Origin: Candidatus Omnitrophota bacterium
GTDB lineage: Bacteria > Omnitrophota > Gorgyraeia > Zapsychrales > Zapsychraceae
Assembly (NCBI GenBank): GCA_020632515.1
Contig: JACKFK010000011.1
Span: 1,284 to 65,283, forward strand
Reading direction: 5' to 3'
DNA: 64,000 bases
The notes below the pieces were generated by a model. That model made no database searches, was not told the origin of the DNA, and was given only the letters and a program-made list of their open reading frames with translations. Position numbers and translations under genes: made by a program. This document shows positions 5,522 to 49,545 of this stretch, one piece after another (within the stretch, counting starts at the first letter, position 1; each line of letters starts with the position of its first letter).

Positions 5522-5653
5522 TATGACATATTATTCAATTTTGTGTTATATGTTGTTTCCAACATGACGGGCAAGGTTATGTTGAACGGTAAAATAGGAG
5601 GGGCATCATGAAAAGGCATATTAAAAACAAGAAATCGGAGTTTTTTCGAACCG

Positions 5654-5856: not shown

Positions 5857-5877
5857 TGCAACAAATACATATACAGC

Positions 5878-5909
5878 GGGCCTGAAATTTTCAGGTCCGT
5901 TGTTGTTTT
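5878..5909 (+). terminator. Rho-independent terminator
   Basis: GGGCCTG-AAATTTT-CAGGTCC hairpin (7 bp, one G-U pair) followed by GTTGTTGTTTT. Confidence 0.55.
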
Positions 5910-5910
5910 C

Positions 5911-5933
5911 GGACAATATACGGACAATGGAAT
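5911..5933 (+). repeat. Left copy of a perfect 23-bp direct repeat, GGACAATATACGGACAATGGAAT
   Basis: An identical 23-mer recurs at 17862-17884. It contains an internal GGACAAT duplication with 11-bp spacing. Confidence 0.9.
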
Positions 5934-6040
5934 ACCCACAAATAGGGCAGAAAACGGTCTAACAAGAGAGAATAAAATTTTTCGTAAGTGTCAGCAGTAG
6001 ATAAGATTATAGAAAATCAGCGAATAACTAAAAATATCAA

Positions 6041-6080
6041 ACCTTCGCTCATAACCTGAAGGTCACAGGTTCTCCCGCAA
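6041..6080 (+). pseudogene. Decayed 3'-half remnant of an initiator tRNA-Met gene
   Basis: GCTCATAACCtGAAGGTCaCAGGTTC...tCCCGCAA compares with the E. coli tRNA-fMet sequence GCTCATAACCCGAAGGTCGTCGGTTCAAATCCGGCCCCCGCAA. The T-loop and half of the T-stem are deleted, the 5' half is absent, and there is no cloverleaf. Confidence 0.55.
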
Positions 6081-6153
6081 TTTCTTAAGGTTAAAAATTG
6101 GGGTATTTATGGTTCAATAAAGGGTATTTTCTGACAGATAAGTTGGCAATATA

Positions 6154-6182
6154 TTGACAGGTTATCCAACATATGCTATAGT
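6154..6182 (+). promoter_or_regulatory. Sigma70-type promoter for the XRE-Panacea operon
   Basis: TTGACA (6154-6159), a 17-nt spacer, then TATAGT (6177-6182). The AAAGGAG RBS sits 9 nt before the ATG at 6219. Confidence 0.55.
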
Positions 6183-6218
6183 CCTACTATTGAAACCTGT
6201 GAAAAAGGAGCAAAATCT

Positions 6219-7013
6219 ATGAGCGAGAATTTTAATAAAAAATTAGGTCAAAGAATTAGAGAATTAAGGGGCCAATATGGATTTAATCAGGAGAAGGTTG
6301 CAAAACATTTGGGGATTAAGCGTACATCATTTTCTCAAATTGAGATTGGTGAACGAAAAATTAGTGTTGAAGAAATTGCCAAACTTTCAAAATTGTTCAA
6401 TATTCCAACCGATTCGCTTTTAGATTTAAATGCAGAAATAAAAGTTGAATTAATGAAAGAGCCTCCAAAGAAAGAAAAACAGGAATTAAGAATTAGTGTT
6501 CCTCAAAATAGGATAGACAAATTCAAGGAAGTTTTACTTTATATTTTGGATAGAGTCGGCTCAAAATCTAATGTTGGAGAAACAGTAATTTATAAATTGT
6601 TATACTTTATTGATTTTGATTTTTATGAACTTTATGAAGAGCAATTAATTGGTGCATCTTATCAAAAAAATCATTATGGGCCAACTCCAGTTGAGTTTGC
6701 AAAGATAGTAAGCGATATGGAGCAAAGTGAAGAGGTAGTAAAAGTAAAAGAACAATACTATCAATTTCCACAAACAAAATATTTACCATTGAGAAAACCT
6801 GATTTAAGTAAATTAAAAGCTAATGAAATTAAATTAATCGACGAGGTTCTAGAGAAATTGTCAGATTATAATGCTAATAAGATAAGTGAGTATTCGCATG
6901 ATGACGTTCCCTGGATGACAACGGATGAAGGAGAAATTATAGATTATGAATCAGTATTTTATCGCACCAAGCCATATTCCGTGAGGTCATACAGTGAAGA
7001 AGAAGTTCAATGA
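6219..7013 (+). CDS. XRE-family HTH fused to a Panacea (DUF4065/SocA-like) antitoxin domain
   Basis: N-terminal LGQRIRELRGQYGFNQEKVAKHLGIKRTSFSQIEIGERKISVEE is a Cro/C1 HTH. The C-terminal half carries VIYKLLYFIDFDFY...Y.KNHYGPTP, typical of DUF4065. Confidence 0.75.
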   Translation: MSENFNKKLGQRIRELRGQYGFNQEKVAKHLGIKRTSFSQIEIGERKISVEEIAKLSKLFNIPTDSLLDLNAEIKVELMKEPPKKEKQELRISVPQNRIDKFKEVLLYILDRVGSKSNVGETVIYKLLYFIDFDFYELYEEQLIGASYQKNHYGPTPVEFAKIVSDMEQSEEVVKVKEQYYQFPQTKYLPLRKPDLSKLKANEIKLIDEVLEKLSDYNANKISEYSHDDVPWMTTDEGEIIDYESVFYRTKPYSVRSYSEEEVQ

Positions 7014-7371
7014 TATTAAAAGACTCACGGAATTTGATAAAGACTTTAAGAAATTGTTAAAGAAGTATCGTTCTTTAGAAGAAGATTTAGATGCATTTAT
7101 CGACAATCAGTTAGTTCTTTATCATAAATTAAACGTTGATAATAACGGTATATTTCAAATACCTAATTTAGGTTTTGAGGAACCCAAGATTTATAAAGCC
7201 AAGAAGTTTGCGTGTAAAGCTTTAAAAGGAAAGGGAGTTCAAAGTGGTATCCGAATCGTTTATGCTCATTATCCTGACGAGGATATGTTGGAATTTATAG
7301 AAATTTATCACAAGTCGGATAAGGAGAATGAAGATAGGGAGAGGATAAGGCGTTATTACGCCAAGAATTGA
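6994..7371 (+). CDS. RelE/ParE-superfamily toxin-like protein
   Basis: GTG start overlaps the upstream gene by 20 nt. FDKDFKKLLKKY...KGKGVQSGIRIVYAHYPDEDMLEFIEIYHKSDKEN fits the RelE/HigB-type pattern (F.K.lKKL...KGkSgGyRiiY...l..iY.Ksdk). Confidence 0.6.
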   Translation: MKKKFNDIKRLTEFDKDFKKLLKKYRSLEEDLDAFIDNQLVLYHKLNVDNNGIFQIPNLGFEEPKIYKAKKFACKALKGKGVQSGIRIVYAHYPDEDMLEFIEIYHKSDKENEDRERIRRYYAKN

Positions 7372-7413
7372 ATCTGCACTGTCGCCTATTATTTTAGGTA
7401 ATTAAGGTTGTTG

Positions 7414-8007
7414 ATGAAAAAAACATCTGTACAGAAAAGAGAATATGCTAGTGAGCATCATAATTGGGATATGACAATGAGGGCATCTTCCGATTTGCTT
7501 ACAATTGGAGAGTTGTCTAAAGGGGTATCGTATCGTTTTTCTGCATTTACTGGATCAATGCTTTTATCCATCAGTGCCTTGGAATCATTTTTAAATTCTT
7601 TTGCTTCTTTCTTCGAAAAAGGCGATAGTTTTTCTTGGGAGGAATATGAGAGAAAAAGCATTGAAGATAAATTAGAATTTTGTTTTCAGCGATATTCTTT
7701 AGAAATAAAAAAAGGTGAGAGGCCATTTCAAACGGTAAAGAAAGCAATCTCCTGGAGAAATAGTTTAATACATTATAAGCCAATTTATGTTGATCCTGTT
7801 GTTATTGCTTCTGATTATGATATTAAAAAATTACCACAAAGGTCTATTTCAAATAAGAAAAGTAAACCTTATGAGAATTTAGTGGATAGAAAATTTGCGA
7901 AACAATTTAATAATGACATTATTATGATTATCCAGGGCTTAATAAAAGTTAGTGGTATTAATCCAAGGGCACAGTGCTCTTATAAAGTATTAGATCAAAG
8001 CTTCTGA
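7414..8007 (+). CDS. Hypothetical protein, possible HEPN-type RNase
   Basis: 197 aa with predicted helical character and a W-R-N-S-L-I-H (R-x4-H) motif at nt 7753-7773. I recognise no other motif. Confidence 0.4.
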   Translation: MKKTSVQKREYASEHHNWDMTMRASSDLLTIGELSKGVSYRFSAFTGSMLLSISALESFLNSFASFFEKGDSFSWEEYERKSIEDKLEFCFQRYSLEIKKGERPFQTVKKAISWRNSLIHYKPIYVDPVVIASDYDIKKLPQRSISNKKSKPYENLVDRKFAKQFNNDIIMIIQGLIKVSGINPRAQCSYKVLDQSF

Positions 8008-8109
8008 TTGTGAACTGTATTTTTTTGAAGGTATTCCAATAAAAACTCCCTAATCATTCCCCCCCCATAATCGTTCCTCTCGCCAGGGGGCTGTGTTATA
8101 ATCGGATTT

Positions 8110-8313
8110 ATGCTCAAGAAAATGATTCCAGCGGCCACGTTCAGTGCTTTGGTTAAAGTTATCCGACGGGAGATTGAGGTATCCCGCACCCGGATTGAAC
8201 AGCAACCCGTGCTTACGTACTGGACGATCGGCGGCAATATCAATGCTTTCTTAAGCGACACAACGCGCCGGAGAAAAGTACAACCGCCGGACGCCGCGCC
8301 GCGGCCTGGGTAA
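8110..8313 (+). pseudogene. Fragment resembling the N-terminus of a DUF1016/YhcG-type PD-(D/E)xK nuclease
   Basis: IRREIEVSRTRIEQQPVLTYWTIGGNINAFL resembles the YhcG N-terminal pattern (I..AR......VN..LV.LYW.IG..I). The ORF is truncated and sits in a GC-rich patch. Confidence 0.3.
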
Positions 8314-8315
8314 CT

Positions 8316-8495
8316 GTGCGTTTGAAAGATTGCCAGTTTGTAGTGATCAAGACTTACAAAACAGATAAATATGCCAGGTATCTGGTGGATGTGTTTTATC
8401 AGTCGGGGGAAACGGATCCTAACGTGGTGGCGCGGGAAGGCGCGTATTTAAATTCCCAGCTGCTGGAAGAAGGCCTGGCGGTAAAATGGAGTTGA
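8316..8495 (+). pseudogene. C-terminal fragment of a thermonuclease (SNase-like) gene
   Basis: There is no start codon. KTDKYARYLVDVFYQSGETDPNVVAREGAYLNSQLLEEGLAVKW matches the SNase C-terminal pattern (D.YgR.La.v......N..Lv.eGlA). GC is well above the flanks. Confidence 0.4.
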
Positions 8496-8656
8496 ACGAG
8501 GTAAAGGAGAGATTGGTATGAGTGTCTCCTTAAAGGTGATGAATACTTATTTTACTTAATGCCGATTAAGCATGTGAATGTGGGGTCGAAGTTAGATAAG
8601 AAGGTGTTTGGTTTCAATAATGAAATATATAAAGTAACAGTAAATAATCTGAATAG

Positions 8657-8685
8657 TTGACAGGTGAATGGTTGAGTGGTATACT
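8657..8685 (+). promoter_or_regulatory. Promoter of the MarR-1 operon, with repeated RGTTRA units in the spacer
   Basis: TTGACA (8657-8662), a 17-nt spacer, then TATACT (8680-8685). The spacer reads GGTGAATGGTTGAGTGG, and AATAGTTGA sits immediately upstream. Confidence 0.6.
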
Positions 8686-8706
8686 ATTAAAAAATCAGGA
8701 GAGGCG

Positions 8707-9186
8707 ATGTTTGAATTAGAACAATATGGAATTGGTACAGGTGATAAGAAGAAGCATGAGGAGTTGGTTTACATGACAGCCCTCATCTATAATCTCCTTA
8801 ATAATGACATTACGTCATATCTTACCAAATATAATTTATCCCCTGGAAAGCTGAATATATTGGTTGCCATGCGTCATCATGGAGGCAATCAAGGTCTGGC
8901 ACAGATTGAGATTAGTCGCCATCTTATTGTTACTAAATCTAATATGACCAAGCATCTGGATAAACTTGAGAATGAAGGGATGATTACTCGATCTGCAAGA
9001 CCAGGAGATAAAAGAGTTAAGATTATTAAAATCACTAAAAAGGCAGAAGAATTATTAGATGCAATGTGGGATGAATATAATCAAAGGTTGGAATCGCTGA
9101 CATCGAGATTAAGTAAGGAGAAAAAAATACAATTATCTGAATTACTTTTTGAATGGTTTGGTACGTTAATACCAGGGGATAAATAA
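8707..9186 (+). CDS. MarR-family transcriptional regulator (paralog 1)
   Basis: The winged-HTH core ISRHLIVTKSNMTKHLDKLENEGMITRSARPGDKRVKIIKITKKAEELL is present. The start is moved to the ATG behind the AGGAGAGG RBS, because the ORF-track start lies inside the promoter. Confidence 0.85.
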   Translation: MFELEQYGIGTGDKKKHEELVYMTALIYNLLNNDITSYLTKYNLSPGKLNILVAMRHHGGNQGLAQIEISRHLIVTKSNMTKHLDKLENEGMITRSARPGDKRVKIIKITKKAEELLDAMWDEYNQRLESLTSRLSKEKKIQLSELLFEWFGTLIPGDK

Positions 9187-9187
9187 A

Positions 9188-10177
9188 ATGGTAAAACTTT
9201 TTAACAATTCTAAATATTTAGTTAGCAGTTGGTATGCTTTGATTCCTTCTAAGAAATTAAAAAAAAGAGAAGCTCAATCATTCAAACTTTTTGACAGGAA
9301 AATTGCACTTTATCGAGGTGATGATAACACGGTTAGAGCTCTCAATGCCAGATGCCCTCATTTGGGAACCGATCTAGGTCAAGGGTGTGTTGTTGGAAAT
9401 CAGTTACAATGTGCTTTTCATCACTGGAAGTTTGGTGACGATGGAAGCTGTACGCATATTCCTAATTCGGATGATATTCCTAAATTCGCAAAAACATTTT
9501 CATACCCATGCCAGGAGAAATTTGGTTTTATTTGGATTTTTAATGGAGAAAATCCAACATTCGATTTGCCTACCTTTGAGGAGTGGAAAATGGAGGAGTT
9601 GGAATGCATCGCTTTACCTGCTTCAAAATTAAATTGCCATCCACATCTCATTTCTAGTAATGGATTAGACATTGAACATATGAAAGCATTGCACAACATG
9701 GAATTTGTAGAAGAACCAGAGGTTGAGCAGTTTGATCATTATCGTATTCAAACAAGATTTAAGATTGCTGTTAAAGGTAATGGTTTTCGAGAGCGAATTA
9801 TAAAGGCAACATTAGGAAAAGAAGTTACGTTACATCTAACAACTTGGGGTGGAAACATGGCCGTTGGAGAGGCTATTCATAAAAACAATCCAGTTTTAAT
9901 TATTTTCGCCCATAATCCACAACTAGATGGAACCAGTGCTTGCCGTGGTTTTATTTTTCTTCCTAAACTTAATCGACTTGGTTTAAAAGTAAATTATCTC
10001 AAATTACCTCAAGTATTTGCAGCCTTACATTATATTCTTCATGCTGATCATGAAATATTAAACAATATAGAATTTCATCCTCGTCTTGTTGATAGTGATA
10101 GACCTATAAAACTCTTTATCGATCAAATAAACAAGATGGATTATTTTCCAAGAGAGGGAAGTAAGGAAGCTGTATGA
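9188..10177 (+). CDS. Rieske [2Fe-2S] non-heme-iron oxygenase, alpha-subunit-like
   Basis: Rieske motif C-P-H-x16-C-A-F-H (CPHLGTDL...CAFHHW), plus the mononuclear iron motif D-I-E-H-M-K-A-L-H (D-x2-H-x4-H). Confidence 0.8.
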   Translation: MVKLFNNSKYLVSSWYALIPSKKLKKREAQSFKLFDRKIALYRGDDNTVRALNARCPHLGTDLGQGCVVGNQLQCAFHHWKFGDDGSCTHIPNSDDIPKFAKTFSYPCQEKFGFIWIFNGENPTFDLPTFEEWKMEELECIALPASKLNCHPHLISSNGLDIEHMKALHNMEFVEEPEVEQFDHYRIQTRFKIAVKGNGFRERIIKATLGKEVTLHLTTWGGNMAVGEAIHKNNPVLIIFAHNPQLDGTSACRGFIFLPKLNRLGLKVNYLKLPQVFAALHYILHADHEILNNIEFHPRLVDSDRPIKLFIDQINKMDYFPREGSKEAV

Positions 10178-11538
10178 AAATTGCATTAATGGCACCAGCA
10201 GGTGCAATGCATAGATATAAGGGGAGTTTTGCCAAAGCACTTCATTATTCTCCTTTAACATTAACAACCTTGGCTGCATTAGTCCCACCTGAATTGGATG
10301 CAGAAATTGAAATCTATGATGAGACTGTTGAGTTTCTTCCAAAGAATCCAGATGCAGATTTAATTGGTATGACAGTTATTACAGGAACGAGTCAGCGTGC
10401 GTATGAATGGGCTGGGTACTATAGAAGTTTGGGTAAAACGGTTATTTTAGGGGGAGTTCATCCATCGTTTGTTCCGAATGAAGCTAAAGAACACGCAGAT
10501 GCGGTTGTTGTAGGTGCTGCAGAACAAACTTTTCCAGAGTTATTGATGGATTATAAAAAAGGGCAACTCAAACCATTTTATCATCAAGGCAGTAATTTTA
10601 CACTTGTAGGAAGACCGCAACCACGAAGAGATTTATTAAAAAAAGACAGATATATTACGACGAATACTATTGAAGCGACAAAAGGATGTATACATTCATG
10701 TCGATTTTGTGTAACACCAGCAATGACAGGTCAAAATGTTTCAACTCGACCTGTCAAAGAGGTGATTGCCGAGATTGAACAGTTACCAGGCAAAGAAATG
10801 GTTTTTGTTGATGTCAATTTAATAGCAAATCCTGGGTATGCTAAAGAATTATTTAGGGAGCTCATTCCTTTGAAGAAAATGTGGTTTGGTTTAGTGACTG
10901 TCAATATTGGTAAGAATAAGGAGTTATTTGATTTAATGGTTAAAAGTGGGTGCCGTGGAGTATTAATTGGATTTGAAGCTATCACATCCGATTCACTTAA
11001 AAGTATTGATAAAGGTTTTAATAGAGTCAGTGAATATGAATTGTTGGTCAAGAAATTACATGATGCAGGAATCATTATTAACGGAACTTTTGTACTTGGG
11101 ACGGATGGTGATGATAATTCAGTTTTTTCAAGAACATTTAATATGATCCAAAAACTTAAAATAGATCTACCAAGATTTTCTGTGATGACACCATTTCCAG
11201 GAACACCATTATATCGATCGTTAGAACAAGCAGGACGTATCATTGATCGTAATTGGGCAAATTATGATGTAGAGCATTGTGTTATTCAACCAAATCAAAT
11301 GACACCAGAAGAATTAGAAAAAGGATTAGAGTGGACTTGGAAGCAAACATATAAGTACTCATCAATTCTTCAAAGAATTGCGGGAATTAATTCTAGATTG
11401 ATGTTAAACGTTCCTGTTAATCTCGGTTATCGACAGTATGCCACCAAATTACCAAAGTTTCCTAAAGAAGTCATGATGGATAATTCGGATGTACCATATT
11501 ATGAAAAAAATAACATTTATATACCCAGCAGTAGGTAA
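10174..11538 (+). CDS. B12-binding-domain radical SAM enzyme (class B type)
   Basis: N-terminal Rossmann-like cobalamin-domain pattern (DLIGMTV...VILGGVHPS). Radical SAM cluster motif C-IHS-C-RF-C. ATGA start/stop overlap with the Rieske gene. Confidence 0.8.
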   Translation: MKIALMAPAGAMHRYKGSFAKALHYSPLTLTTLAALVPPELDAEIEIYDETVEFLPKNPDADLIGMTVITGTSQRAYEWAGYYRSLGKTVILGGVHPSFVPNEAKEHADAVVVGAAEQTFPELLMDYKKGQLKPFYHQGSNFTLVGRPQPRRDLLKKDRYITTNTIEATKGCIHSCRFCVTPAMTGQNVSTRPVKEVIAEIEQLPGKEMVFVDVNLIANPGYAKELFRELIPLKKMWFGLVTVNIGKNKELFDLMVKSGCRGVLIGFEAITSDSLKSIDKGFNRVSEYELLVKKLHDAGIIINGTFVLGTDGDDNSVFSRTFNMIQKLKIDLPRFSVMTPFPGTPLYRSLEQAGRIIDRNWANYDVEHCVIQPNQMTPEELEKGLEWTWKQTYKYSSILQRIAGINSRLMLNVPVNLGYRQYATKLPKFPKEVMMDNSDVPYYEKNNIYIPSSR

Positions 11539-12838
11539 AAAGCCAGGCACTAAGTATATTAGGACGTGGAAGATGGAACCTCTACCAATTGCAGCTTTGG
11601 CGTCGTTAACTCCTGATGATATTGAAACGGAATTCTTCGACGATCGATTAGAGCTTATTGATTACGAAACAGAAACGGATTTGGTCGCAATCACAGCGGA
11701 AACATATACTGCTATGAGAGCTTATGATATTGCCGATAAGTTTCGCAAAAGAGGTATTAAAGTAGTATTGGGAGGCTATCATCCAACACATTTACCAGAA
11801 GAGTCTGGAAAATATGCGGATAGTGTTGTCATAGGAAATGCAGAGAGTGTGTGGGAGCAGTTACTTAAAGATGCGAATAACGGTGGGCTTAAAAAAGTAT
11901 ACAAAGGAGTAGTAGGAGAATTCTCTGGATTACCAAATCGTGATATTTTTAAAGGGAAAAATTATGTAAAGCTCGGGTTAGTTGAAACAGGACGTGGGTG
12001 TCCTTTTAAATGTGAGTTTTGTCATATAACAACATATTATAATGCTAAATATTATTCTAGACCAATAAAGGATGTTGTTGAAGATATCAAACGTTCAGGA
12101 AAAAAATTATTCTTTTTTTGTGATGATAATTTTGTGGCTAATCCAAAGTATACAATTGAGTTATGCAAAGAGTTAGTAAAATTAAATATCAAATTTTCTG
12201 GGCAAGGAACCATTACAATGGCAAAAAATAAAGAACTGTTGTATTGGTTGAAAAAGGCTGGATGTGTACTGTTATTGATCGGCTTTGAATCTATGGAAGA
12301 TGAGAATCTAAAAAGAGTCAATAAGGATTGGATGAGTGAAGTTGGAGATCGAGGAGAGTTAGTTGATAATATTCATCGAGCAGGAATCAGTATCTATGCA
12401 ACGTTCATTTTTGGATTAGATCATGATACACAAGATACTTTTAAAAAAGCTATTGATTTTGCCCATGAAAAAGGATTTTATTATACCGCGTTTAATCATT
12501 TATTACCTTTTCCAGAAACGCCATTATACAGGCGGTTAGATAAAGAAAATCGATTGATTAATCGACACTGGTGGCTAGATAGGAATTATAAGTATGGGGA
12601 TATTGCGTATCAACCGATAAATATGACACCCCAGCAATTAACAGAAGGTTGCCTTAGTGCACGAAGAAAGTTTTTCTGTTATTCATCTATATTTAAAAGA
12701 GCTATTCGTCTTTTGAAAAGAAATCCTTCGTTATCGTTTCTTTACGTATTTTTACATTCAAATTTAAATTTAAAAGATGAAGTGGAAGGGAAATATAGTC
12801 TTCCCCTTGGGAGTGGTCTTGATGAATTGCCTAAGTAA
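11501..12838 (+). CDS. B12-binding-domain radical SAM enzyme (paralog of the previous gene)
   Basis: DLVAITA...VVLGGYHPT cobalamin-domain pattern and a C-PFK-C-EF-C cluster motif. Same architecture as 10174-11538. The start is ambiguous (11489 or 11501). Confidence 0.8.
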   Translation: MKKITFIYPAVGKKPGTKYIRTWKMEPLPIAALASLTPDDIETEFFDDRLELIDYETETDLVAITAETYTAMRAYDIADKFRKRGIKVVLGGYHPTHLPEESGKYADSVVIGNAESVWEQLLKDANNGGLKKVYKGVVGEFSGLPNRDIFKGKNYVKLGLVETGRGCPFKCEFCHITTYYNAKYYSRPIKDVVEDIKRSGKKLFFFCDDNFVANPKYTIELCKELVKLNIKFSGQGTITMAKNKELLYWLKKAGCVLLLIGFESMEDENLKRVNKDWMSEVGDRGELVDNIHRAGISIYATFIFGLDHDTQDTFKKAIDFAHEKGFYYTAFNHLLPFPETPLYRRLDKENRLINRHWWLDRNYKYGDIAYQPINMTPQQLTEGCLSARRKFFCYSSIFKRAIRLLKRNPSLSFLYVFLHSNLNLKDEVEGKYSLPLGSGLDELPK

Positions 12839-13931
12839 CAGATTTATAATAGAACCTGCTAAAGCATCAGATGGTCTTGAAATGCTTCAGTTATTAGAGC
12901 AAACGCCTTTTGAGGGCAAGGTGTCGTTATTATATACACGTCGACCAGATGCCTATCAATCTTTTCTATATGAGGGAAGAAATATGGAAGTATCTGTTTG
13001 CAGAGATCTTCAAGAAGGAAAGATTATTGCTATAGGGGCATATGTTATTCAAGTTGTTTATATCAACAATAAAGAGGAGCAGGTGGCGTATATATTTGGA
13101 TTGAAAGGGTATTCTGATTATTTAAAGTCACATCCTTTGTTGCATAGGTTTTATGCCTATCTGGAGGAGAATCTTAAAAGGAATAATATACGGTTTTGTT
13201 ATACGACTATTTTGGAAAGTAACCATTATGCACAAAGGTTATTGGAAAAGAAGAGAAGAATTATGCCACATTATGAAAAATTTGGGAGGTATGAAACATT
13301 TGCAATAAGGAATACATCAAGAAGAAAGAAACATAACGGTTATGTCTTTACGAAAGCCTCTAAAGAAGATCTTCCAGAAATGGTTCGATTCTTGAATCAA
13401 GAAGGATCTAAGTGTCAGTTCTTTCCTGTAGTTAAATTAGACGATATTTTAAGTGAAACATTTAAAGGGATAAATACTGATAGTTTTTATATTGTTAAGC
13501 AAGATGACAAAATTATAGCTGCGGGTGCTATTTGGGATCAGGGAGATTATAAACAATATATTGTTCAGCAATACTCAGGTTTCTTAAGAATCTTTAATAA
13601 GTTGCAACTATTGTCTGCACTATTTCAAATACCGTCTCTTCCTGATCCAGGACAAGCATTAAAATTTTATACATTGTCTCGCTGGGCTATTAAAGATAAT
13701 GATAAAACGATCTTCAATGTTTTCATGGATAATTTGAAAGATCATACCCAAGATTATCCATTTATGCTCATTGGAGTTCATGAAAGTCATCCTTTGAGAA
13801 ATGAGTTAATGAATCGTAAGCATATAAAATATAGTAGCAATGTCTATCTTGTTGATTGGGTTAAGAAGATAAGTCCCCTAACATTACTTAATACAGAGAT
13901 GTCATCTTATATTGAATGCGGAGCCTTATGA
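12822..13931 (+). CDS. Hypothetical protein, acyltransferase-like (tentative GNAT/FemAB-like fold)
   Basis: About 370 aa in two halves. Only the N-terminal half shows an acetyltransferase-like sequence segment (IIAIGAYVIQVVYINNKEE...AYIFGLKG). No named motif is recognised. The start is ambiguous (12777 or 12822). Confidence 0.35.
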   Translation: MNCLSNRFIIEPAKASDGLEMLQLLEQTPFEGKVSLLYTRRPDAYQSFLYEGRNMEVSVCRDLQEGKIIAIGAYVIQVVYINNKEEQVAYIFGLKGYSDYLKSHPLLHRFYAYLEENLKRNNIRFCYTTILESNHYAQRLLEKKRRIMPHYEKFGRYETFAIRNTSRRKKHNGYVFTKASKEDLPEMVRFLNQEGSKCQFFPVVKLDDILSETFKGINTDSFYIVKQDDKIIAAGAIWDQGDYKQYIVQQYSGFLRIFNKLQLLSALFQIPSLPDPGQALKFYTLSRWAIKDNDKTIFNVFMDNLKDHTQDYPFMLIGVHESHPLRNELMNRKHIKYSSNVYLVDWVKKISPLTLLNTEMSSYIECGAL

Positions 13932-14647
13932 TGCTGAGTAATCGAATAGTAAGAATTTATGAACTATCGCAATCTGAAATTGAGGTGATGTATCAATTGA
14001 TGAAGCAATATTACGATAATATTTTTCGAGATAAGTTTCTAAAGGATTTAAAAGAGAAGGAAGGCGTGCTCTTGGTACTTGATGGAAATCAAAATATATG
14101 TGGTTTCACGACGTATGATCTGTATCAAACAAATTTTCAGAACGAATGCATTAATGTTTTATATTCAGGAGATACGGTCATCAGGAAAGAATATTGGGGG
14201 CAAGTGAATACCAGTAAAATGTTTATGTCTTTGTTAATGAAGTGTAAAGAGGAATGCAATGGATTGTTATTCTGGTTTTTGATCACTAAAGGAATTCGAA
14301 CGTATCGTCTCCTACCGTTGTTTTTCAAAAATTACTATCCCAGTTATCACGTCGCTACACCCGAATATGAAAAAAATATCATTAAACATTTAGCAAGGTT
14401 GCAGTTTAAAGAATACTACATAATGGCTGAAGGAGTTATTCGGTTTGAAAAGGGAAGTGATTGTCTTAAAAATGAATTCTGCCATATAGATAAAAATAAG
14501 AAAATAAATCCACACATACAATATTTTCTCAAGGTTAATCCTGGGTATATTTCTGGTGACAATCTCCCGTGTATTGCCGAGATTGATTTAGATAATTTTA
14601 CTAATAGGGCTCTTAAGTTTATAGATAACGTTGTTGTTAAGGTTTAA
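13928..14647 (+). CDS. Hypothetical protein, possibly an acyltransferase
   Basis: The ATGA overlap with the upstream stop supports co-translation. Sequence ICGFTTYDLY...YSGDTVIRKEYWGQ...LITKGIRTYRLL. I cannot assign a family by eye. Confidence 0.3.
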   Translation: MMLSNRIVRIYELSQSEIEVMYQLMKQYYDNIFRDKFLKDLKEKEGVLLVLDGNQNICGFTTYDLYQTNFQNECINVLYSGDTVIRKEYWGQVNTSKMFMSLLMKCKEECNGLLFWFLITKGIRTYRLLPLFFKNYYPSYHVATPEYEKNIIKHLARLQFKEYYIMAEGVIRFEKGSDCLKNEFCHIDKNKKINPHIQYFLKVNPGYISGDNLPCIAEIDLDNFTNRALKFIDNVVVKV

Positions 14648-14649
14648 TT

Positions 14650-16260
14650 ATGAAGATAAATAGTCTAATGATAAATAAATTATGGCACATGAGTTGTATG
14701 CCTAAATATAAGTATTTCTTAACTAACATGGAGTATGCACGGAATGAACAAATAAAAATTCTATTAGAATTGATTAGGAAAAATGAAGACACTGTCTTTG
14801 GTAGAGAGCATAAATTTAAAGAAATAAACAATTATGATATGTATCAAAAGAATATACCTCTCATGAACTCTGATGAATATTTACCCTTTATGGATAAAAT
14901 TAGGAATGGTGAGAATAGCGTATTAACAAAAGAGAACGTTTTTTTATTAGAGCCTACAGGTGGTAGTAGTGGTGGAACAAAGCTTATTCCGTATACTTCT
15001 TCTTTGAGGAGAGAGTTTTTATTAGCTATCTGTCCGTGGGTGGTAAATATGATGAATAATTATCCAGGTCTTATGAAAGGGAGAAGTTATTGGACGATAA
15101 CACCTAAAATATCTAAAGAGGACGATGGAGAGAGTGAGATTCCAATCGGCTTTGATGATGATTTCGAATATTTTGGATCAATAGGAAAAATTCTTAGATT
15201 TAATTCTGTTATACCAAGCAAAATTAACGAATTGACTGAAATAAATCGTTTTAAACACATCACATCTTGTTGTTTATTATCTGCGAATGATCTCTCCTTT
15301 ATTTCCATCTGGAATCCATCGTTATTTTCTTTGTTCATAGATCATATTGAAAATTCAACACCTCAGCTCATAAAGGATATTCATGATGGAATAAAGGGTT
15401 TTGTTGAGTCTTCTCCTCAAAGAGCGAAAGAGATTGAAGAGTGTATGAAGTTAGACTTTTCACAGCGATATGAAGCCATTTGGAAGGAGCTATCTCTAAT
15501 TTCTTGTTGGATGGATGGAGCATCGAGCGTCCATGCTAACAGGTTGAAAGATTGTTTTCCTAATGTTCAATTTCAGAATAAAGGCTTATTAGCAACTGAA
15601 GGAGTTATTACAATTCCCTGGAAGGAATCTGGAGGAAACGTACCAGCTTATACATCTCACTTTTTTGAGTTTATTAATAAAAGTGGTTCTTTTAAATTGA
15701 TTGATGAGTTAAAAGAGCAAGAAGAATATACTGTTGTTATTACTACTGGATCTGGATTGTATCGGTATAATATGGGAGATAGGGTGAAAGTTGAGAGTTT
15801 TTATAATGGTTTACCTGTTCTTAAATTTATTGGGCGAGAAAAGCTATCAGATTTGGTAGGAGAGAAATTAGACGATGTATTTGTTTCACGGGCGATAGAG
15901 AATACAATAAAGGAAATGGGCATTGAAAGTGATTTCGTAATGTTAGCTCCTGAGATTAAGAGCAATGGAGGTCAGTATATTTTGTATATTCATTTAAACG
16001 GAAATAGTGAAAAATATAATTTATTGGATCTTAGAAGTAAATTGGAATTACGTTTGATGGATAATTTTCATTATAGACATGCTTTGGAGGTAGAGCAGTT
16101 AACACCTCTAAAGATATTCTTGATCAATAATGATGCTAAAAATGTTTATACTAATCGGTGTATTAGCGAAGGACAAAAATTAGGTGATGTAAAGTCTGCC
16201 TATTTAGATAATCGCCATGGATGGATAGATTATTTTCAAGGGGAGTTATTAAATATATAA
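14650..16260 (+). CDS. GH3-family acyl-acid amido synthetase (adenylating enzyme)
   Basis: LEPTGGSSGGTKLIPYT (GH3 nucleotide-binding motif) and GLYRYNMGDRVKV (GH3 motif 3-like). The length (536 aa) is typical of the family. Confidence 0.75.
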   Translation: MKINSLMINKLWHMSCMPKYKYFLTNMEYARNEQIKILLELIRKNEDTVFGREHKFKEINNYDMYQKNIPLMNSDEYLPFMDKIRNGENSVLTKENVFLLEPTGGSSGGTKLIPYTSSLRREFLLAICPWVVNMMNNYPGLMKGRSYWTITPKISKEDDGESEIPIGFDDDFEYFGSIGKILRFNSVIPSKINELTEINRFKHITSCCLLSANDLSFISIWNPSLFSLFIDHIENSTPQLIKDIHDGIKGFVESSPQRAKEIEECMKLDFSQRYEAIWKELSLISCWMDGASSVHANRLKDCFPNVQFQNKGLLATEGVITIPWKESGGNVPAYTSHFFEFINKSGSFKLIDELKEQEEYTVVITTGSGLYRYNMGDRVKVESFYNGLPVLKFIGREKLSDLVGEKLDDVFVSRAIENTIKEMGIESDFVMLAPEIKSNGGQYILYIHLNGNSEKYNLLDLRSKLELRLMDNFHYRHALEVEQLTPLKIFLINNDAKNVYTNRCISEGQKLGDVKSAYLDNRHGWIDYFQGELLNI

Positions 16261-16298
16261 TAAGTTTATCGTTGTAACCTTAACCAAGGGAGGAAGTG

Positions 16299-16913
16299 AT
16301 GAAAGAGAATGTAATTAAAAGAGTTTTGTACTTAGGCATATTATTAATACTGGGGTTTGTTTTTATTACGCCAAGTTTTGCTCAGGTTGATAGTGCAAGA
16401 GAAAAGGATCATCAAGAAATACGCCAATTACTTGCGGATGTAACTAATGCTATCAATACCGAAGACACAGATAATATTAGTAGCTTTTTTACAAAAGAAT
16501 ATATATACGTGGGTGCCGATCAATCAGTCATTACTCATCGGAAAGAATTTTTAGAGTATTATAATAAATTATTAGGTGGAGAAGATGCACTTCTTAAATC
16601 TCTTAATTTTAAACCAAAAGCATTAACGAAAACAAAATTTATTCAAGATAATGTTGGAATCGTTCATGGAGAGAGTGATGATACATATGTGTTAGCGAAT
16701 GGTCATAAAACAAACGTTCAATCAAAATGGTCAGCTACTCTTTTGAAAGAAGGTGGTAAGTGGAAAGTTGCATCGCTTCATAATGGAGTTAATTTTTATG
16801 ACAATCCAGAGATTGATAATTTTATTAATTTTTGGAAGATGATAGCTCTCGGGGCTTTAGTTGTCGGATTTATATTAGGATTTGTAGTTAAAGGAAAAGC
16901 AAAGTCAGCGTAG
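16299..16913 (+). CDS. Secreted, C-terminally anchored NTF2/SnoaL-like (DUF4440-like) protein
   Basis: Signal peptide ...ITPSFAQV. EIRQLLADVTNAINTEDTDNISSFFTKEY is typical of the SnoaL/DUF4440 N-terminus. C-terminal TM helix IALGALVVGFILGFVV. Confidence 0.5.
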   Translation: MKENVIKRVLYLGILLILGFVFITPSFAQVDSAREKDHQEIRQLLADVTNAINTEDTDNISSFFTKEYIYVGADQSVITHRKEFLEYYNKLLGGEDALLKSLNFKPKALTKTKFIQDNVGIVHGESDDTYVLANGHKTNVQSKWSATLLKEGGKWKVASLHNGVNFYDNPEIDNFINFWKMIALGALVVGFILGFVVKGKAKSA

Positions 16914-16921
16914 GTTATGCC

Positions 16922-17857
16922 ATGATTAAAGATGAAAAATACCCCATACCAGGAACATTGAATATTGTCATTTCGATTGTTCAGCTAACCTTATTATGTT
17001 CAATACTTATAGGTGTAAGTATGGTTCAGTCGTGGATGTCTATTTTCTGGTTGGCTATTTGCTACGGTATCGTGATGAATTCCAGCTATGCAATGGTTCA
17101 TGAAGCTGAGCATAATCTATTGCATCCTAATCGAAGAATTAATAATGCTTTTGGGGTAGTTCTGGCGCTTTTTTTTCCAGCTCCTTTTCACCTAATCCGC
17201 CAAGGGCACCTTGGTCATCATATGAGAAATCGTTCAGATGATGAGGCATTTGATATCTATTTTGAAGGAGACAATGTTGTCATAAAACAATTACAGTTTT
17301 ATGGAATTTTAACGGGTATGTTTTGGGTTATGATTCTGTTAAGCAATTTTATATCGGCATTCTATCCTCAAATGCTTTCTTCAAAATCAGTTTATAAGAA
17401 AAAGTTTGACCGACCTATGAATGCTTTGCTTGAGACATTAAATCCTAAATATCTCGTGCATATTCGATTAGAAGCGATGGCGATCTTTATATTGCATGGA
17501 AGTTTAATGTGGTTATTTCAAATGTCATTCTTGAAGTATATGGCTGTGATTTTTGGTTTTGGTTTTATGTGGTCTGCGATGCAGTATGTGCATCATTACG
17601 GAACAGAAAGAGATGTTCAAAAAGGGGCGTTGAATTTAAAGACATTTGCTTTATTAGATTTTATTTGGCTTAACCATAATTGGCATTTAAGACATCATTT
17701 AAATCCAACGATATCCTGGATATATTTACCTAAAATTTATGAGGGTAAAAAAGAGAGCCGAGATAATATGTTTGTGACTTATTTTAAAATGTGGAAGGGT
17801 GCTCAAAAGTCGGATGAGCATGTTATGAATCAATATTCAGGGAGAGTTATAAGATGA
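16922..17857 (+). CDS. Membrane fatty-acid desaturase family protein
   Basis: Three histidine boxes (HEAEH, HLGHH, HLRHH) separated by hydrophobic spans. Confidence 0.8.
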   Translation: MIKDEKYPIPGTLNIVISIVQLTLLCSILIGVSMVQSWMSIFWLAICYGIVMNSSYAMVHEAEHNLLHPNRRINNAFGVVLALFFPAPFHLIRQGHLGHHMRNRSDDEAFDIYFEGDNVVIKQLQFYGILTGMFWVMILLSNFISAFYPQMLSSKSVYKKKFDRPMNALLETLNPKYLVHIRLEAMAIFILHGSLMWLFQMSFLKYMAVIFGFGFMWSAMQYVHHYGTERDVQKGALNLKTFALLDFIWLNHNWHLRHHLNPTISWIYLPKIYEGKKESRDNMFVTYFKMWKGAQKSDEHVMNQYSGRVIR

Positions 17858-17861
17858 TCTT

Positions 17862-17884
17862 GGACAATATACGGACAATGGAAT
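17862..17884 (+). repeat. Right copy of the perfect 23-bp direct repeat, GGACAATATACGGACAATGGAAT
   Basis: Identical to 5911-5933. It begins 5 nt after the desaturase stop codon. Confidence 0.9.
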
Positions 17885-17988: not shown

Positions 17989-18080
17989 TATACCCATTTG
18001 GGTATAATATAATTAAATATATGCCTTTTAGGGTATAATAATTTATAAAAATATTGAAATTATACCCGATAGGTGGTATA
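17989..18080 (+). promoter_or_regulatory. hipBST promoter/operator region with three TATACCC-N-GGGTATA type inverted repeats
   Basis: TATACCC-ATTT-GGGTATA (17989-18006, perfect), TATATGCC-TTTTA-GGGTATA (18018-18037) and TATACCC-GATAGGT-GGTATA (18061-18080). TATAAT boxes at 18003-18008 and 18034-18039 overlap the first two operators. Confidence 0.6.
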
Positions 18081-18089
18081 TTAAAAGCA

Positions 18090-18371
18090 ATGAATAAGAT
18101 AAATGAACAAATAAAACGATTAAGAAAGAATTCGGGATTAACTCAAGTCGAATTTTCTAAACGATCTGGTGTAGGTTTAAGATTTCTTAGAGAGCTTGAA
18201 CAGGGGAAAACAACTGTGCGTTTGGATAAAGTAAACCAAGTGTTAGAATTTTTAGGTCACCATTTAGAAATAGGTAAAGATGATCGAAGAATGATAACAA
18301 AAGGTGTAACAGCTCATGAAGATAAAATTCCCGAGGGGAGTGCTATATTTAAAGAAATACCAGAAAAATAA
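18090..18371 (+). CDS. hipB: HipB-like XRE-family HTH protein
   Basis: IKRLRKNSGLTQVEFSKRSGVGLRFLRELEQGKTTVRLDKVNQVLEFLG is a Cro/C1 HTH. The start is moved to 18090 because the ORF-track start covers the third operator. Confidence 0.75.
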   Translation: MNKINEQIKRLRKNSGLTQVEFSKRSGVGLRFLRELEQGKTTVRLDKVNQVLEFLGHHLEIGKDDRRMITKGVTAHEDKIPEGSAIFKEIPEK

Positions 18372-18376
18372 TAATT

Positions 18377-18727
18377 ATGAATAAAGAGAAGATTTATAGA
18401 AGTGCAAAAGTTTATTATAAAGATGAATTCGCGGGAGTCTTAAAAGAAGCAGAGAAAGGGTATATTTTTCAATATGATAAAGATTTCATGAAAAAAAATA
18501 TATCGATATCTGTAACGCTGCCTGTTCAAGAGGAGCCTTTTGAGTCAGAAAAATTATTTCCATTTTTTCGAGGGTTACTTCCTGAAGGTTGGTATTTGAA
18601 TATTGTTAGTACAACACAGCATGTTGATACTAAAGATTGGTTTGGAGTGCTCTTAGCAACTACAAGTGTAGATACAATTGGTGCAGTTACTGTACGTAAA
18701 GATACTCATAATAAAAATAATGGATAA
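18377..18727 (+). CDS. hipS: HipS-like protein (stand-alone HipA N-terminal subdomain)
   Basis: 116 aa. YKDEFAGVL...YIFQYDKDF...ISVTLP...PFFRGLLPEGW matches the HipA N-terminal 'couple_hipA' pattern. Confidence 0.7.
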   Translation: MNKEKIYRSAKVYYKDEFAGVLKEAEKGYIFQYDKDFMKKNISISVTLPVQEEPFESEKLFPFFRGLLPEGWYLNIVSTTQHVDTKDWFGVLLATTSVDTIGAVTVRKDTHNKNNG

Positions 18728-19586
18728 CGCTAAATTATTAAAGAAAATTTTTAACATACCTAAATGGCCTAGTATTGATTTCAGCTTATCAGAGGTTTCA
18801 TTAGAAGCTCAGGAGTTGGCAGGAAAGCTATCTATATCAGGAGTGCAGCCAAAATTGTCTGTAAAATTGGATAGAAGGAAAAATGCGTTGATTTCAACAA
18901 TCAAAGGGGGAGAATTTATTTTAAAGCCTCAAACATCAGTTTATCCGAATATACCAGAAAATGAGCAATGTTGTATGGATATGGCAGCGGCGTTGGGTAT
19001 TGCTGTACCTGATCATTGCTTATTACCTCTGAAAGATAATAGTTTGGCTTATATTGTAAAGAGGTATGACAGAAATAAGGTGGATAAATATAACCAAGAA
19101 GATTTTCAGCAAATATTAGAAAAAGACGACAAATATATGGGTTCTGTTGAAGAAATTTGCCGCGCAATTAATTCGATTTCAGCAGTTCCCGGTTTGGATG
19201 TTCAACTTTTATACGAGCGGGTAATTTTTAATTTTATAATAGGTAATGGCGATGCGCATTTTAAGAATTACTCTATGATTACATATAATGATATCGATAG
19301 GCGATTAGCTCCCGCCTATGATTTAGTGTGTTCAAAATTAATTATCCCTAAAGGAAAAGATTCCGCCTTAGCTATTAATGGAAAGCAAAATAATCTTAAA
19401 CGGAAAGATTTTGATATATTGGGCGACTATTGTAAGATTCCTGAAAAAATAAGATATGAGAAATTTGATCAGAAATTCGATATTATGAGAAAAATGATAG
19501 AATCCTCTCAAGTAGATCAAGAGAAGAAAAAAAATTTCATTGAAATAATAAAGGAACGATTACATCGGTTAAAGTTGTCAGAATAA
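18720..19586 (+). CDS. hipT: HipT-like Ser/Thr kinase toxin (HipA kinase core lacking N-subdomain 1)
   Basis: SISGVQPKLSV (Gly-rich loop region), GNGDAHFKNYS (catalytic D-x-H-x-K-N) and APAYDLV are present. The ATG overlaps the hipS stop by 8 nt. Confidence 0.75.
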   Translation: MDNAKLLKKIFNIPKWPSIDFSLSEVSLEAQELAGKLSISGVQPKLSVKLDRRKNALISTIKGGEFILKPQTSVYPNIPENEQCCMDMAAALGIAVPDHCLLPLKDNSLAYIVKRYDRNKVDKYNQEDFQQILEKDDKYMGSVEEICRAINSISAVPGLDVQLLYERVIFNFIIGNGDAHFKNYSMITYNDIDRRLAPAYDLVCSKLIIPKGKDSALAINGKQNNLKRKDFDILGDYCKIPEKIRYEKFDQKFDIMRKMIESSQVDQEKKKNFIEIIKERLHRLKLSE

Positions 19587-49525: not shown

Positions 49526-49545
49526 TTCTAAAAAAGGAGGATGAG

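What the first reader, a model, noticed from the sequence alone, without database searches (positions are those of the whole stretch)
5911..17884. Perfect 23-bp direct repeats bracket a roughly 12-kb AT-rich segment that has no recombinase
GGACAATATACGGACAATGGAAT occurs at 5911-5933, immediately after a terminator, and again at 17862-17884, 5 nt after the desaturase stop. I did not notice a third copy. A chance 23-mer match within 64 kb is very unlikely, on the order of 1e-5 by a simple 4^23 estimate.

The bracketed DNA contains a tRNA-fMet remnant, a toxin-antitoxin pair, a possible HEPN gene, GC-rich nuclease pseudogene debris, and the orphan nine-gene operon. There is no integrase or transposase.

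Possible interpretations:
- attL/attR cores of an immobilised genomic island
- a duplicated target from an old insertion
- a duplicated regulatory or iteron-like site (the repeat itself contains GGACAAT twice at 11-bp spacing)
Basis: partly seen in the sequence, partly recalled or inferred. Interest (0 to 1): 0.65.

Follow-up and report, generated by a model that had tools for sequence, protein, structure and literature searches.

The report
Possible recombination scar around accessory genes
Two identical 23-base sequences really do bracket about 12 kb of accessory genes in an uncultured Omnitrophota genome, most likely the scar of an old insertion of a circular DNA element, but no empty site, excised circle or recombinase could be found, so this stays an unproven example of a known kind.

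Summary
GGACAATATACGGACAATGGAAT occurs exactly twice, at 5911-5933 and 17862-17884 on the same strand. There is no near-copy elsewhere in the window. Three independent assemblies of the same Candidatus Omnitrophota strain carry both junctions.

All four flanks are unrelated, both copies are intergenic, and the sequence is unstructured. The right copy starts where similarity to the two nearest copies of the biosynthetic operon stops.

The bracket holds a tRNA-fMet 3' half, a Panacea-type toxin-antitoxin pair, a HEPN-like gene, a foreign GC-rich nuclease pseudogene and a MarR-led operon. No recombinase was found anywhere in the window.

A second repeat of about 107 nt lies upstream of Hen1 (outside the window) and upstream of MarR. 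It interleaves with the 23-mer in the order A-D-A-D. That layout is what integration of one circular element at the 23-mer, next to a related resident element, would give.

The best reading (confidence about 0.4) is an attL/attR-like scar of a recombinase-less island. It is unproven:
- No empty site or circle junction was recovered.
- Base composition is not distinctive.
- Exact intergenic repeats of 20 nt or more are fairly common in Omnitrophota loci.

The descriptions "AT-rich" and "orphan operon" are not supported. Interest is low to moderate.

The parts
5873..5909 (+). Intrinsic terminator (14-bp stem plus T-run) ending the small SEC-C-motif ORF, immediately before the left repeat
   Evidence: Terminator scan. 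SEC-C motif found in the six-frame Pfam scan. Frames read.
5911..5933 (+). Left copy (D1) of the 23-mer GGACAATATACGGACAATGGAAT; putative attL-like junction
   Evidence: Exact match. Spanned by independent contigs L002, L047 and L048. Unstructured at 0 kcal/mol.
6046..6080 (+). Degenerate 3' half of a tRNA-fMet (anticodon loop to acceptor end, with a T-loop deletion); no 5' half and no functional tRNA
   Evidence: Local alignment score 38 against a shuffle maximum of 23. ARAGORN finds no tRNA. No Rfam hit.
6154..6182 (+). Strong sigma-70-like promoter (TTGACA-17-TATAGT with TG) for the antitoxin gene
   Evidence: Promoter scan, 11 of 12 matches.
6219..7013 (+). Xre-HTH plus SocA/Panacea-domain antitoxin
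   Evidence: Pfam PF13274 at 8e-18 and HTH_19/HTH_3. PADLOC HTH and DarG-like hits.
6994..7371 (+). 125-aa putative toxin partner, RelE/ParE-like C-terminus by eye, overlapping the antitoxin stop
   Evidence: Translation. No Pfam or NCBIfam hit. The function is inferred from position.
7408..8007 (+). 199-aa protein with an RNSLIH (Rx4H) motif; possible HEPN nuclease
   Evidence: Translation. No family hit. Based on the motif only.
8111..8495 (+). GC-rich (about 49-51%) DUF1016_N-SNase nuclease pseudogene. The window carries a deletion of about 600 bp relative to the MAG copy.
   Evidence: Sequence comparison of the window with L002 and L044. Homologues carry PF17761 plus PF00565. PADLOC PDC-S02. 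GC content.
8505..8611 (+). Element A2: about 107 nt, 90% identical to a sequence 40 nt upstream of the Hen1 start codon (A1; L001:1-105, 1066-1170 nt before window position 1). It folds well.
   Evidence: BLAST. Alignment. Fold z-score -4.2. Logan contigs L001 and L045 both start with the same 30-mer here.
8668..9186 (+). MarR-family regulator, first gene of the cargo operon
   Evidence: Pfam MarR at 3.5e-11.
9188..17857 (+). Eight-gene biosynthetic operon: Rieske oxygenase, two B12-binding radical SAM enzymes, two unknown proteins, a GH3-family ligase, a DUF4440/SnoaL protein and a fatty-acid-desaturase-family protein
   Evidence: Pfam and NCBIfam. Related clusters occur in other phyla.
17862..17884 (+). 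Right copy (D2) of the 23-mer; putative attR-like junction. It starts where similarity to the nearest operon copies ends.
   Evidence: Exact match. Spanned by L044, L045 and L046. Homology to L055 and L049 ends at the stop codon or the first base of the repeat.
18054..19586 (+). Right flank outside the bracket: a module laid out like a tripartite HipBST system (HTH HipB, 116-aa HipA-N-like protein, HipA_C kinase), with repeated GGGTATAAT operator-like sites upstream
   Evidence: Pfam. Repeated 9-mers. Promoter scan.

Best explanation
The two 23-mers are most likely the junction repeats (attL-like and attR-like) left when a circular DNA element of about 11.95 kb recombined with an identical 23-bp site. 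That site lay between the terminator of the small SEC-C gene and the HipB-led toxin-antitoxin module.

The inserted unit would be, in order: 23-mer, tRNA-fMet fragment, Panacea toxin-antitoxin pair, HEPN-like gene, DUF1016-SNase nuclease, element A, MarR operon.

Element A also lies upstream of Hen1-Pnkp, the gene block that ends at the left 23-mer. The simplest history is therefore tandem accretion of two related elements at one site. Each would have a backbone ending in element A, followed by a different cargo operon that abuts the 23-mer.

The recombinase is either outside the window (upstream of Hen1), supplied in trans, or lost. In that case the bracket is now a recombinase-less, cis-mobilizable-type or dead island.

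Shown by the data: the repeats, their sharp edges, the gene content, the A-D-A-D order and the absence of a recombinase in the window.

Inferred: that recombination happened at the 23-mer, that it was site-specific rather than short-homology recombination, and that two related elements are involved.
For: - The repeat is exact, has only two copies and is sharply bounded, with four unrelated flanks.
- Both junctions are verified in independent assemblies.
- Both copies are intergenic and sit at the 3' boundary of a gene block.
- The right copy begins within 0-5 nt of where nucleotide similarity to the nearest operon copies stops. L055 is 82% identical and L049 is 72% identical. Those copies are followed by different genes: HSP20/HtrA-like and an HD domain protein.
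- The bracket content is accessory or foreign: a toxin-antitoxin pair, a defence-type nuclease at about 50% GC in a 36% GC genome, and a tRNA-fMet 3' half 113 nt inside the left repeat.
- Nothing upstream of ArsR-MMPL is syntenic in 39 other Omnitrophota genomes.
- The only two sequences shared between the Hen1 block and the MarR block are element A at the head and the 23-mer at the tail. They have the same order and orientation. This is the layout expected from a single crossover at the 23-mer.
- Recombinase-less islands that keep attL and attR, and tandem accretion at one att site, are documented (PMC5704250, read).
Against: - No integrase, transposase or remnant of one was found in any window ORF or in the six-frame translation next to the left repeat.
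- No empty-site or circle-junction contig exists among the contigs recovered for this strain.
- The exact 23-mer is absent from the genome, metagenome and viral collections, so neither the copy number nor an attB could be tested.
- GC content and tetranucleotide usage show no boundary at the repeats.
- The right repeat abuts a stop codon, and no arm-type repeats were found.
- The 23-mer has no dyad symmetry.
- Exact intergenic repeats of 20 nt or more are not rare in Omnitrophota loci, and some are just duplicated terminators or promoters.
- Element A may simply be a dispersed repeat, which would make the A-D-A-D order uninformative.
Confidence: 0.4

Rival explanations
1. The 23-mer is a protein-binding DNA site: two 7-bp half-sites (GGACAAT) one helical turn apart plus GGAAT. 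It would be present at two places because both are controlled, insulated or marked by the same factor, and it would have nothing to do with insertion.
For: - The 7-bp direct repeat with a 4-bp AT-rich spacer has the layout of winged-helix response-regulator boxes such as the Pho box (general knowledge).
- The sequence is unstructured, so any function would be on duplex DNA.
- Both copies lie upstream of Xre-HTH-led toxin-antitoxin operons.
Against: - The copies lie 221 and 170 nt upstream of the nearest predicted promoters, and the distances differ.
- No OmpR/PhoB-type regulator is encoded in the window.
- The sub-motifs occur at chance frequency in 0.61 Mb of related genomes.
- There are no degenerate copies in the window.
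- Identity is perfect across the spacer and tail, with abrupt loss outside. That pattern suggests common descent rather than selection on contact bases.
Confidence: 0.2
2. The 23-mer is a fragment of a small intergenic repeat or duplicated untranslated segment. It would have spread by ordinary duplication or short-homology recombination, like the duplicated promoters and terminators seen in other Omnitrophota loci. The bracketing of 12 kb would then be incidental.
For: - Nine exact repeats of 20 nt or more lie outside long ORFs in 1.6 Mb of comparison loci, seven of them in Omnitrophota.
- The L030 22-mer is half of a duplicated terminator.
- L023 carries a perfect 178-nt promoter-bearing repeat and a 22-mer interleaved around unrelated genes.
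- Element A in this genome is another such repeat.
Against: - The 23-mer is not a hairpin or a recognisable promoter or terminator part.
- Both copies sit exactly at gene-block ends.
- The A-D-A-D order and the match with the operon homology boundary would be coincidences.
Confidence: 0.2
3. The repeats are a target-site duplication made by a transposon that has since lost its transposase.
For: Direct repeats flank a segment of accessory genes.
Against: - No terminal inverted repeats lie inside the repeats, and the inner ends are unrelated.
- There is no inverted GGACAAT anywhere in the window.
- No transposase or remnant was found.
- 23 bp exceeds the 2-15 bp typical of DDE transposases (general knowledge).
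Confidence: 0.03
4. The match is a chance coincidence or an assembly artefact.
For: None beyond the modest internal redundancy of the 23-mer.
Against: - 0 of 100 shuffles gave two matches.
- The junctions are reproduced in a MAG and in k=31 Logan assemblies from several runs.
Confidence: 0.01

Closest known systems
Cis-mobilizable elements (CIMEs) and tandem accretion of integrative elements at one att site (Streptococcus thermophilus ICESt1/ICESt3 family; reviewed in PMC5704250)
   Same: A block of accessory genes is flanked by identical direct repeats with no integration or transfer genes inside. A neighbouring block shares a conserved segment. [quoted passage not shown]
   Different: - In CIMEs the repeats contain the 3' end of a conserved target gene, and related ICEs with the cognate integrase are known.
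- Here the site is intergenic.
- No related autonomous element, integrase, attB or excision product is known.
Pseudo-SCC elements and composite SCC arrays in staphylococci (from general knowledge)
   Same: Recombinase-less cargo blocks are bounded by short direct repeats of the integration-site sequence. They are arranged in tandem with related elements.
   Different: - SCC repeats lie in the 3' end of orfX/rlmH and are recognised by Ccr serine recombinases.
- Neither a conserved target gene nor such a recombinase is present here.
tRNA or tmRNA-targeting genomic islands with direct repeats, for example the Dehalococcoides ssrA islands (PMC3146451, seen by abstract only)
   Same: Accessory operons sit in tandem islands bounded by direct repeats of about 20 bp. 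A tRNA 3' fragment is present in this locus too.
   Different: - The 23-mer is not derived from the tRNA.
- The tRNA-fMet fragment is a single fossil 113 nt inside the left repeat.
- No intact tRNA gene lies in the window.
Pho-box-type response-regulator sites (7-bp direct repeats, 4-bp spacer; general knowledge)
   Same: GGACAAT-ATAC-GGACAAT has the same 7+4+7 geometry, with one helical turn between half-sites.
   Different: - It is not positioned at a -35 region.
- No cognate regulator was found.
- There are no degenerate copies.
- Identity extends through non-contact positions.

Membership tests
attL/attR of an integrated genomic island (including recombinase-less CIME-type islands) | Identical direct repeats flank the element, with unrelated sequence on all four sides | tested here: met
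   Exact 23/23 match with two copies. Flank alignments score no better than shuffles.
attL/attR of an integrated genomic island (including recombinase-less CIME-type islands) | A tyrosine or serine recombinase is encoded in or next to the element (not required for a CIME) | tested here: not met
   No recombinase family hit in any ORF of the window or in the six-frame translation of 5521-6220. The region upstream of Hen1 could not be retrieved.
attL/attR of an integrated genomic island (including recombinase-less CIME-type islands) | An empty site (attB with one repeat copy) exists in related genomes | tested here: inconclusive
   - The recovered same-strain contigs that span the repeat sites (L002, L047 and L048 on the left; L044, L045 and L046 on the right) carry the occupied junctions.
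- The nearest other genomes share only ArsR-MMPL-p268-p429.
- The 23-mer is absent from all three collections.
attL/attR of an integrated genomic island (including recombinase-less CIME-type islands) | An excised circular form (attP junction) is detectable | not testable with these tools
   Raw reads cannot be searched. No recovered contig joins the desaturase to the Panacea antitoxin.
attL/attR of an integrated genomic island (including recombinase-less CIME-type islands) | Accessory content with patchy distribution and different neighbours in relatives | tested here: met
   Toxin-antitoxin pair, defence-type nuclease and tRNA fragment. The operon has different downstream genes in L055 and L049. 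No synteny in 39 Omnitrophota loci.
attL/attR of an integrated genomic island (including recombinase-less CIME-type islands) | Atypical base composition with steps at the boundaries | tested here: not met
   34.2% against 36.2% GC. Tetranucleotide correlation changes gradually across 1-21 kb with no step at 5.9 or 17.9 kb.
Transposon with a target-site duplication | Terminal inverted repeats immediately inside the direct repeats, plus a transposase | tested here: not met
   The inner ends are unrelated. No ATTGTCC occurs in the window. No transposase was found.
Xer-exploiting element flanked by dif-like sites | A site of about 28 bp with two inverted 11-bp arms around a 6-bp centre | tested here: not met
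   The 23-mer consists of direct, not inverted, sub-repeats. It has no self-complementarity at 0 kcal/mol.
Integron cassette boundary (attC) | An imperfect palindrome that folds into a hairpin on one strand | tested here: not met
   There is no structure in the 23-mer and no shared structure with the flanks on either strand.
REP, MITE or other dispersed short repeat | Many copies across the genome, often palindromic | tested here: inconclusive
   Only two copies occur in the window plus 1.2 kb upstream, and the sequence is not palindromic. The rest of the genome is not available.
OmpR/PhoB-type response-regulator box | 7-bp direct repeats at 11-bp period, overlapping or adjacent to a -35 region, with a cognate regulator | tested here: not met
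   The geometry is met. However, the copies lie 221 and 170 nt from the predicted promoters, and no such regulator is encoded in the window.

The most novel reading that the evidence does not exclude
Element A (about 107 nt, structured) and the 23-mer could be the head and tail of a modular cassette system in Omnitrophota. In such a system, unrelated operons are swapped or stacked between the same two boundary sequences without a locally encoded recombinase. Here the two operons would be Hen1-Pnkp RNA repair and the MarR biosynthetic operon. A second, unrelated Omnitrophota genome (L023) shows the same A-X-D-s-A-Y-D layout, with perfect 178-nt and 22-nt repeats around a three-gene cassette and citrate synthase. 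This hints at a recurrent mechanism in the phylum rather than a one-off.
Probability: 0.1. Interest if true: 0.65.

Novelty: new member of a known kind. Interest (0 to 1): 0.3.

Why it matters
If confirmed, this would be a documented case of island integration or accretion in Candidatus Omnitrophota. This phylum is uncultured, and I know of no described integrative elements or att sites in it. The case would also show how a widely shared lipid-type biosynthetic operon and an RNA-repair module travel between lineages. As it stands it is a plausible but unproven recombination scar in a hypervariable defence and toxin-antitoxin neighbourhood. It is useful as a pointer for read-level checks and is not a surprise to specialists.

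Tried and rejected
- **Exact 23-mer scans.** Scans of genome contigs, metagenome contigs and viral contigs gave zero hits. Genome-wide copy number and attB could therefore not be tested.
- **Synteny search with MMPL.** In 185,579 species genomes, 39 Omnitrophota loci share only ArsR-MMPL-p268-p429.
- **Synteny search with Pnkp.** In JGI metagenomes, the 80 best loci kept share only Hen1-Pnkp.
- **Homologues of the 291-aa left-flank protein.** There are four, and they sit in unrelated contexts. The protein is a lipoprotein, not a hidden recombinase.
- **Exact-protein contig look-ups.** All 12 were used. They returned only occupied junctions, and no contig reaches upstream of Hen1.
- **Six-frame Pfam scan next to the left repeat.** It found only a SEC-C motif.
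- **Rfam.** Nothing was found at either repeat or at element A.
- **Arm-type repeats near the junctions.** None were convincing.
- **Plasmid and phage BLAST of 5500-8700.** Nothing relevant.
- **Sub-motif enrichment.** A 10-nt match (GGACAATGGA) next to the L023 22-mer looked suggestive. The sub-motifs occur at chance frequency in relatives, so I dropped it.
- **Direct repeats around related operons in other phyla.** None were found.
- **Leads from memory that I set aside.** A resemblance to Tn7 end sequences (CGGACAAT) fails because there is no inverted partner and no Tns genes. A CsrA-site idea (three GGA motifs) fails because copy 1 lies beyond a terminator.
Full report
**Observation**

The 23-mer GGACAATATACGGACAATGGAAT is present at 5911-5933 and 17862-17884 on the + strand.
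- No further copy exists with up to 3 mismatches, and none of 100 dinucleotide-preserving shuffles gave two matches.
- A wider scan found nothing with up to 5 mismatches on either strand. The reverse complement of GGACAAT does not occur in the window at all.
- The identity does not extend. Gapped local alignment of the left flanks and of the right flanks scores within the range of shuffled controls.
- Copy 1 follows a strong intrinsic terminator with its stem at 5873-5903.
- Copy 2 begins 4 nt after the TGA stop of the desaturase gene at 17855-17857.
- The 23-mer has no secondary structure, and there is no shared structure with its flanks.

**Source and reproducibility**

The MMPL protein at 21079-23409 has its relatives (57-78% identity) almost entirely in MAGs labelled Candidatus Omnitrophota or, in automated records, Planctomycetales. 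Porin, NrfA and Aas genes in the window fit a diderm bacterium.

The same strain is present in several assemblies at 99.8-100% identity:
- MAG GCA_020430025.1
- Logan assemblies of SRR14234113, SRR14234112, SRR12358675 and SRR12358676

Contigs L002, L047 and L048 span the left repeat with both flanks. L044, L045 and L046 span the right repeat. The repeat is therefore real and not an assembly join.

**Anatomy of the locus**

Left of the bracket:
- Hen1 C-terminus, Pnkp and a Sel1-repeat protein
- a 291-aa lipoprotein
- a small SEC-C-motif ORF broken by an extra T in a T-run

Inside the bracket:
- a degenerate 3' half of tRNA-fMet at 6046-6080
- an HTH-Panacea antitoxin with a 125-aa partner
- a 199-aa protein with an Rx4H motif
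- a DUF1016_N-SNase nuclease pseudogene at about 50% GC
- a MarR gene and eight biosynthetic genes

Right of the bracket:
- a module laid out like HipB, HipS and HipT
- an SGNH-like gene
- the conserved ArsR-MMPL operon

No integrase, transposase or resolvase family matched any ORF of at least 120 aa in the window. None matched the six-frame translation of 5521-6220 either.

- The bracket is 34.2% GC against 36.2% for the window.
- Tetranucleotide similarity to the rest of the window is mildly lower across the whole 1-21 kb region, with no step at either repeat.
- The operon is not orphan. The desaturase has more than 1,500 homologues. Clusters combining GH3, B12-radical-SAM, DUF4440, desaturase and Rieske genes occur in other lineages.

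**Comparative evidence**

No empty site could be found.
- The exact 23-mer is absent from the species-representative genomes, the JGI metagenomes and IMG/VR.
- In 39 Omnitrophota loci only ArsR-MMPL-p268-p429 is syntenic. Nothing from 1-20.6 kb recurs.
- The 80 kept Pnkp relatives share only Hen1.
- The 291-aa protein has four homologues, all in unrelated contexts.

The nearest copies of the operon are L055 (82% nucleotide identity) and L049 (72%). In both, similarity to the window stops at the desaturase stop codon or within a few bases of it, which is where the right 23-mer begins. The next genes there are different: HSP20 with an HtrA-like protease, and an HD-domain protein. Neither locus has the 23-mer. 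The right repeat therefore lies at a synteny breakpoint. However, intergenic DNA at this divergence would lose similarity anyway.

**A second repeat pair**

Window 8505-8611 (element A2) lies between the nuclease stop and the MarR promoter. It is 90% identical to L001:1-105 (A1). A1 lies 1066-1170 nt before window position 1, 40 nt upstream of the Hen1 start codon.
- Two Logan contigs from different runs start with the same 30-mer at this element. This is what a repeat continuing to the left would produce in a k=31 graph.
- Element A folds better than its shuffles, with a z-score of -4.2.
- Element A and the 23-mer are the only significant sequences shared between the Hen1 block and the MarR block. 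They come in the same order and orientation: A1, Hen1 block, D1, toxin-antitoxin and nuclease, A2, MarR operon, D2.

A single crossover at the 23-mer would give this order. It would join a chromosome carrying A-Y-D to a circle carrying D-s-A-X. That points to two related elements stacked at one site.

**Calibration**

Exact direct repeats are common in real genomes. In 1.6 Mb of comparison loci of at most 22 kb each, I found 55 exact direct repeats of 20 nt or more. Nine had both copies outside long ORFs, and seven of those nine were in 0.61 Mb of Omnitrophota loci.
- One of them (L030) is simply a duplicated terminator half.
- Another locus (L023) has a perfect 178-nt promoter-bearing repeat and a perfect 22-mer. 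They are interleaved around a three-gene cassette and citrate synthase, downstream of an HNH endonuclease. This is the same layout as in the window.

Such repeats are therefore not rare in this phylum, and they are not by themselves proof of an island.

**Alternatives**

- A target-site duplication is unlikely: no inverted ends, no transposase, and 23 bp is too long.
- dif-like and attC-like sites are excluded by the lack of dyad symmetry and structure.
- A regulator box is geometrically possible, because the 23-mer has a 7-4-7 layout like a Pho box. However, the copies lie 221 and 170 nt from the nearest predicted promoters. No matching regulator is encoded nearby. Sub-motifs are not enriched in relatives.
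- A fragment of a dispersed repeat cannot be excluded without the full genome.

**Verdict**

The island reading is the best supported at about 0.4, but it rests on context rather than on an empty site, a circle or a recombinase.

The closest known category is a recombinase-less island that retains attL and attR, possibly stacked with a related element (PMC5704250). Membership fails on the recombinase and composition criteria and is untested on attB and attP.

I rate it a probable new member of a known kind, with low to moderate interest (0.3). A less likely reading (about 0.1) is that head and tail repeats mark a recurrent cassette mechanism in Omnitrophota.

Noticed in passing
window 8505-8611 and L001:1-105 (1066-1170 nt before window position 1): An element of about 107 nt, 90% identical in two copies, lies just upstream of the Hen1-Pnkp operon and of the MarR operon. 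It folds into two hairpins (z-score -4.2) and has no Rfam match. Logan contigs break at it, so the repeat probably continues leftwards.
   Followed up: partly
window 8111-8495; L002:3521-4306 plus L044:1-233: The GC-rich DUF1016_N-SNase nuclease gene is inactivated differently in two assemblies of the same strain. The window has a deletion of about 600 bp between two near-identical 17-nt sequences (cgcgccgKgaaaagtac). The MAG has the full length but a nonsense codon at residue 32. The nearest homologues (at most 56% identity) are mostly in Omnitrophota and Rickettsiales-like MAGs. One of them lies in a 54% GC genome next to an IS element and toxin-antitoxin genes (L142).
   Followed up: partly
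window 5682-5846: A 54-aa SEC-C-motif ORF (…[13 protein letters not shown]…) is broken by one extra T in the run at 5787-5790. Logan contig L001 ends inside that run, which suggests length heterogeneity in the population or a homopolymer error.
   Followed up: no
window 8668-17857; L054:878-12271; L050 and L052: The MarR-led operon (Rieske SdmA-like oxygenase, two B12-radical-SAM enzymes, two unknown proteins, an OlsH-like GH3 ligase, DUF4440 and a desaturase-family protein) belongs to a widely distributed conserved cluster. The cluster looks lipid-modifying and has AurF-containing variants in other lineages. I did not look for a published function.
   Followed up: partly
window 18054-19586: The right-flank toxin-antitoxin module is split like the tripartite HipBST systems: an HTH protein, a 116-aa HipA-N-terminal-like protein and a HipA_C kinase. 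Three GGGTATAAT-type operator-like repeats lie upstream.
   Followed up: no
L023:1474-1651 and 4189-4366; L023:3967-3988 and 6018-6039: In another Omnitrophota genome, a perfect 178-nt repeat (hairpin plus a TATAAT-like end) and a perfect 22-mer are interleaved around a three-gene cassette of unknown function and citrate synthase. An HNH-SRA endonuclease and an S24 peptidase gene lie just upstream. The head and tail layout is the same as in the window.
   Followed up: partly
window 38654-38797 and 39017-39476: A c-di-GMP-I riboswitch (46.5 bits) precedes a 639-aa ORF. That ORF contains about ten tandem 33-nt repeats and has no Pfam match.
   Followed up: no
window 32614-32631 and 46410-46427: A second exact direct repeat of 18 nt (CGTGTTTTTTATATGCGT) has both copies inside ORFs (a TMEM175-like gene and a GT2 gene). 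It is borderline for chance.
   Followed up: no
window 8668-9186, 49516-50010, 55775-56284: Three MarR-family regulators each head a lipid-related gene block. The other two precede Aas and a block of cyclopropane-fatty-acid-synthase, DUF1295 and DUF1365 genes. A similar promoter-like sequence recurs at 49491 and 50008.
   Followed up: no
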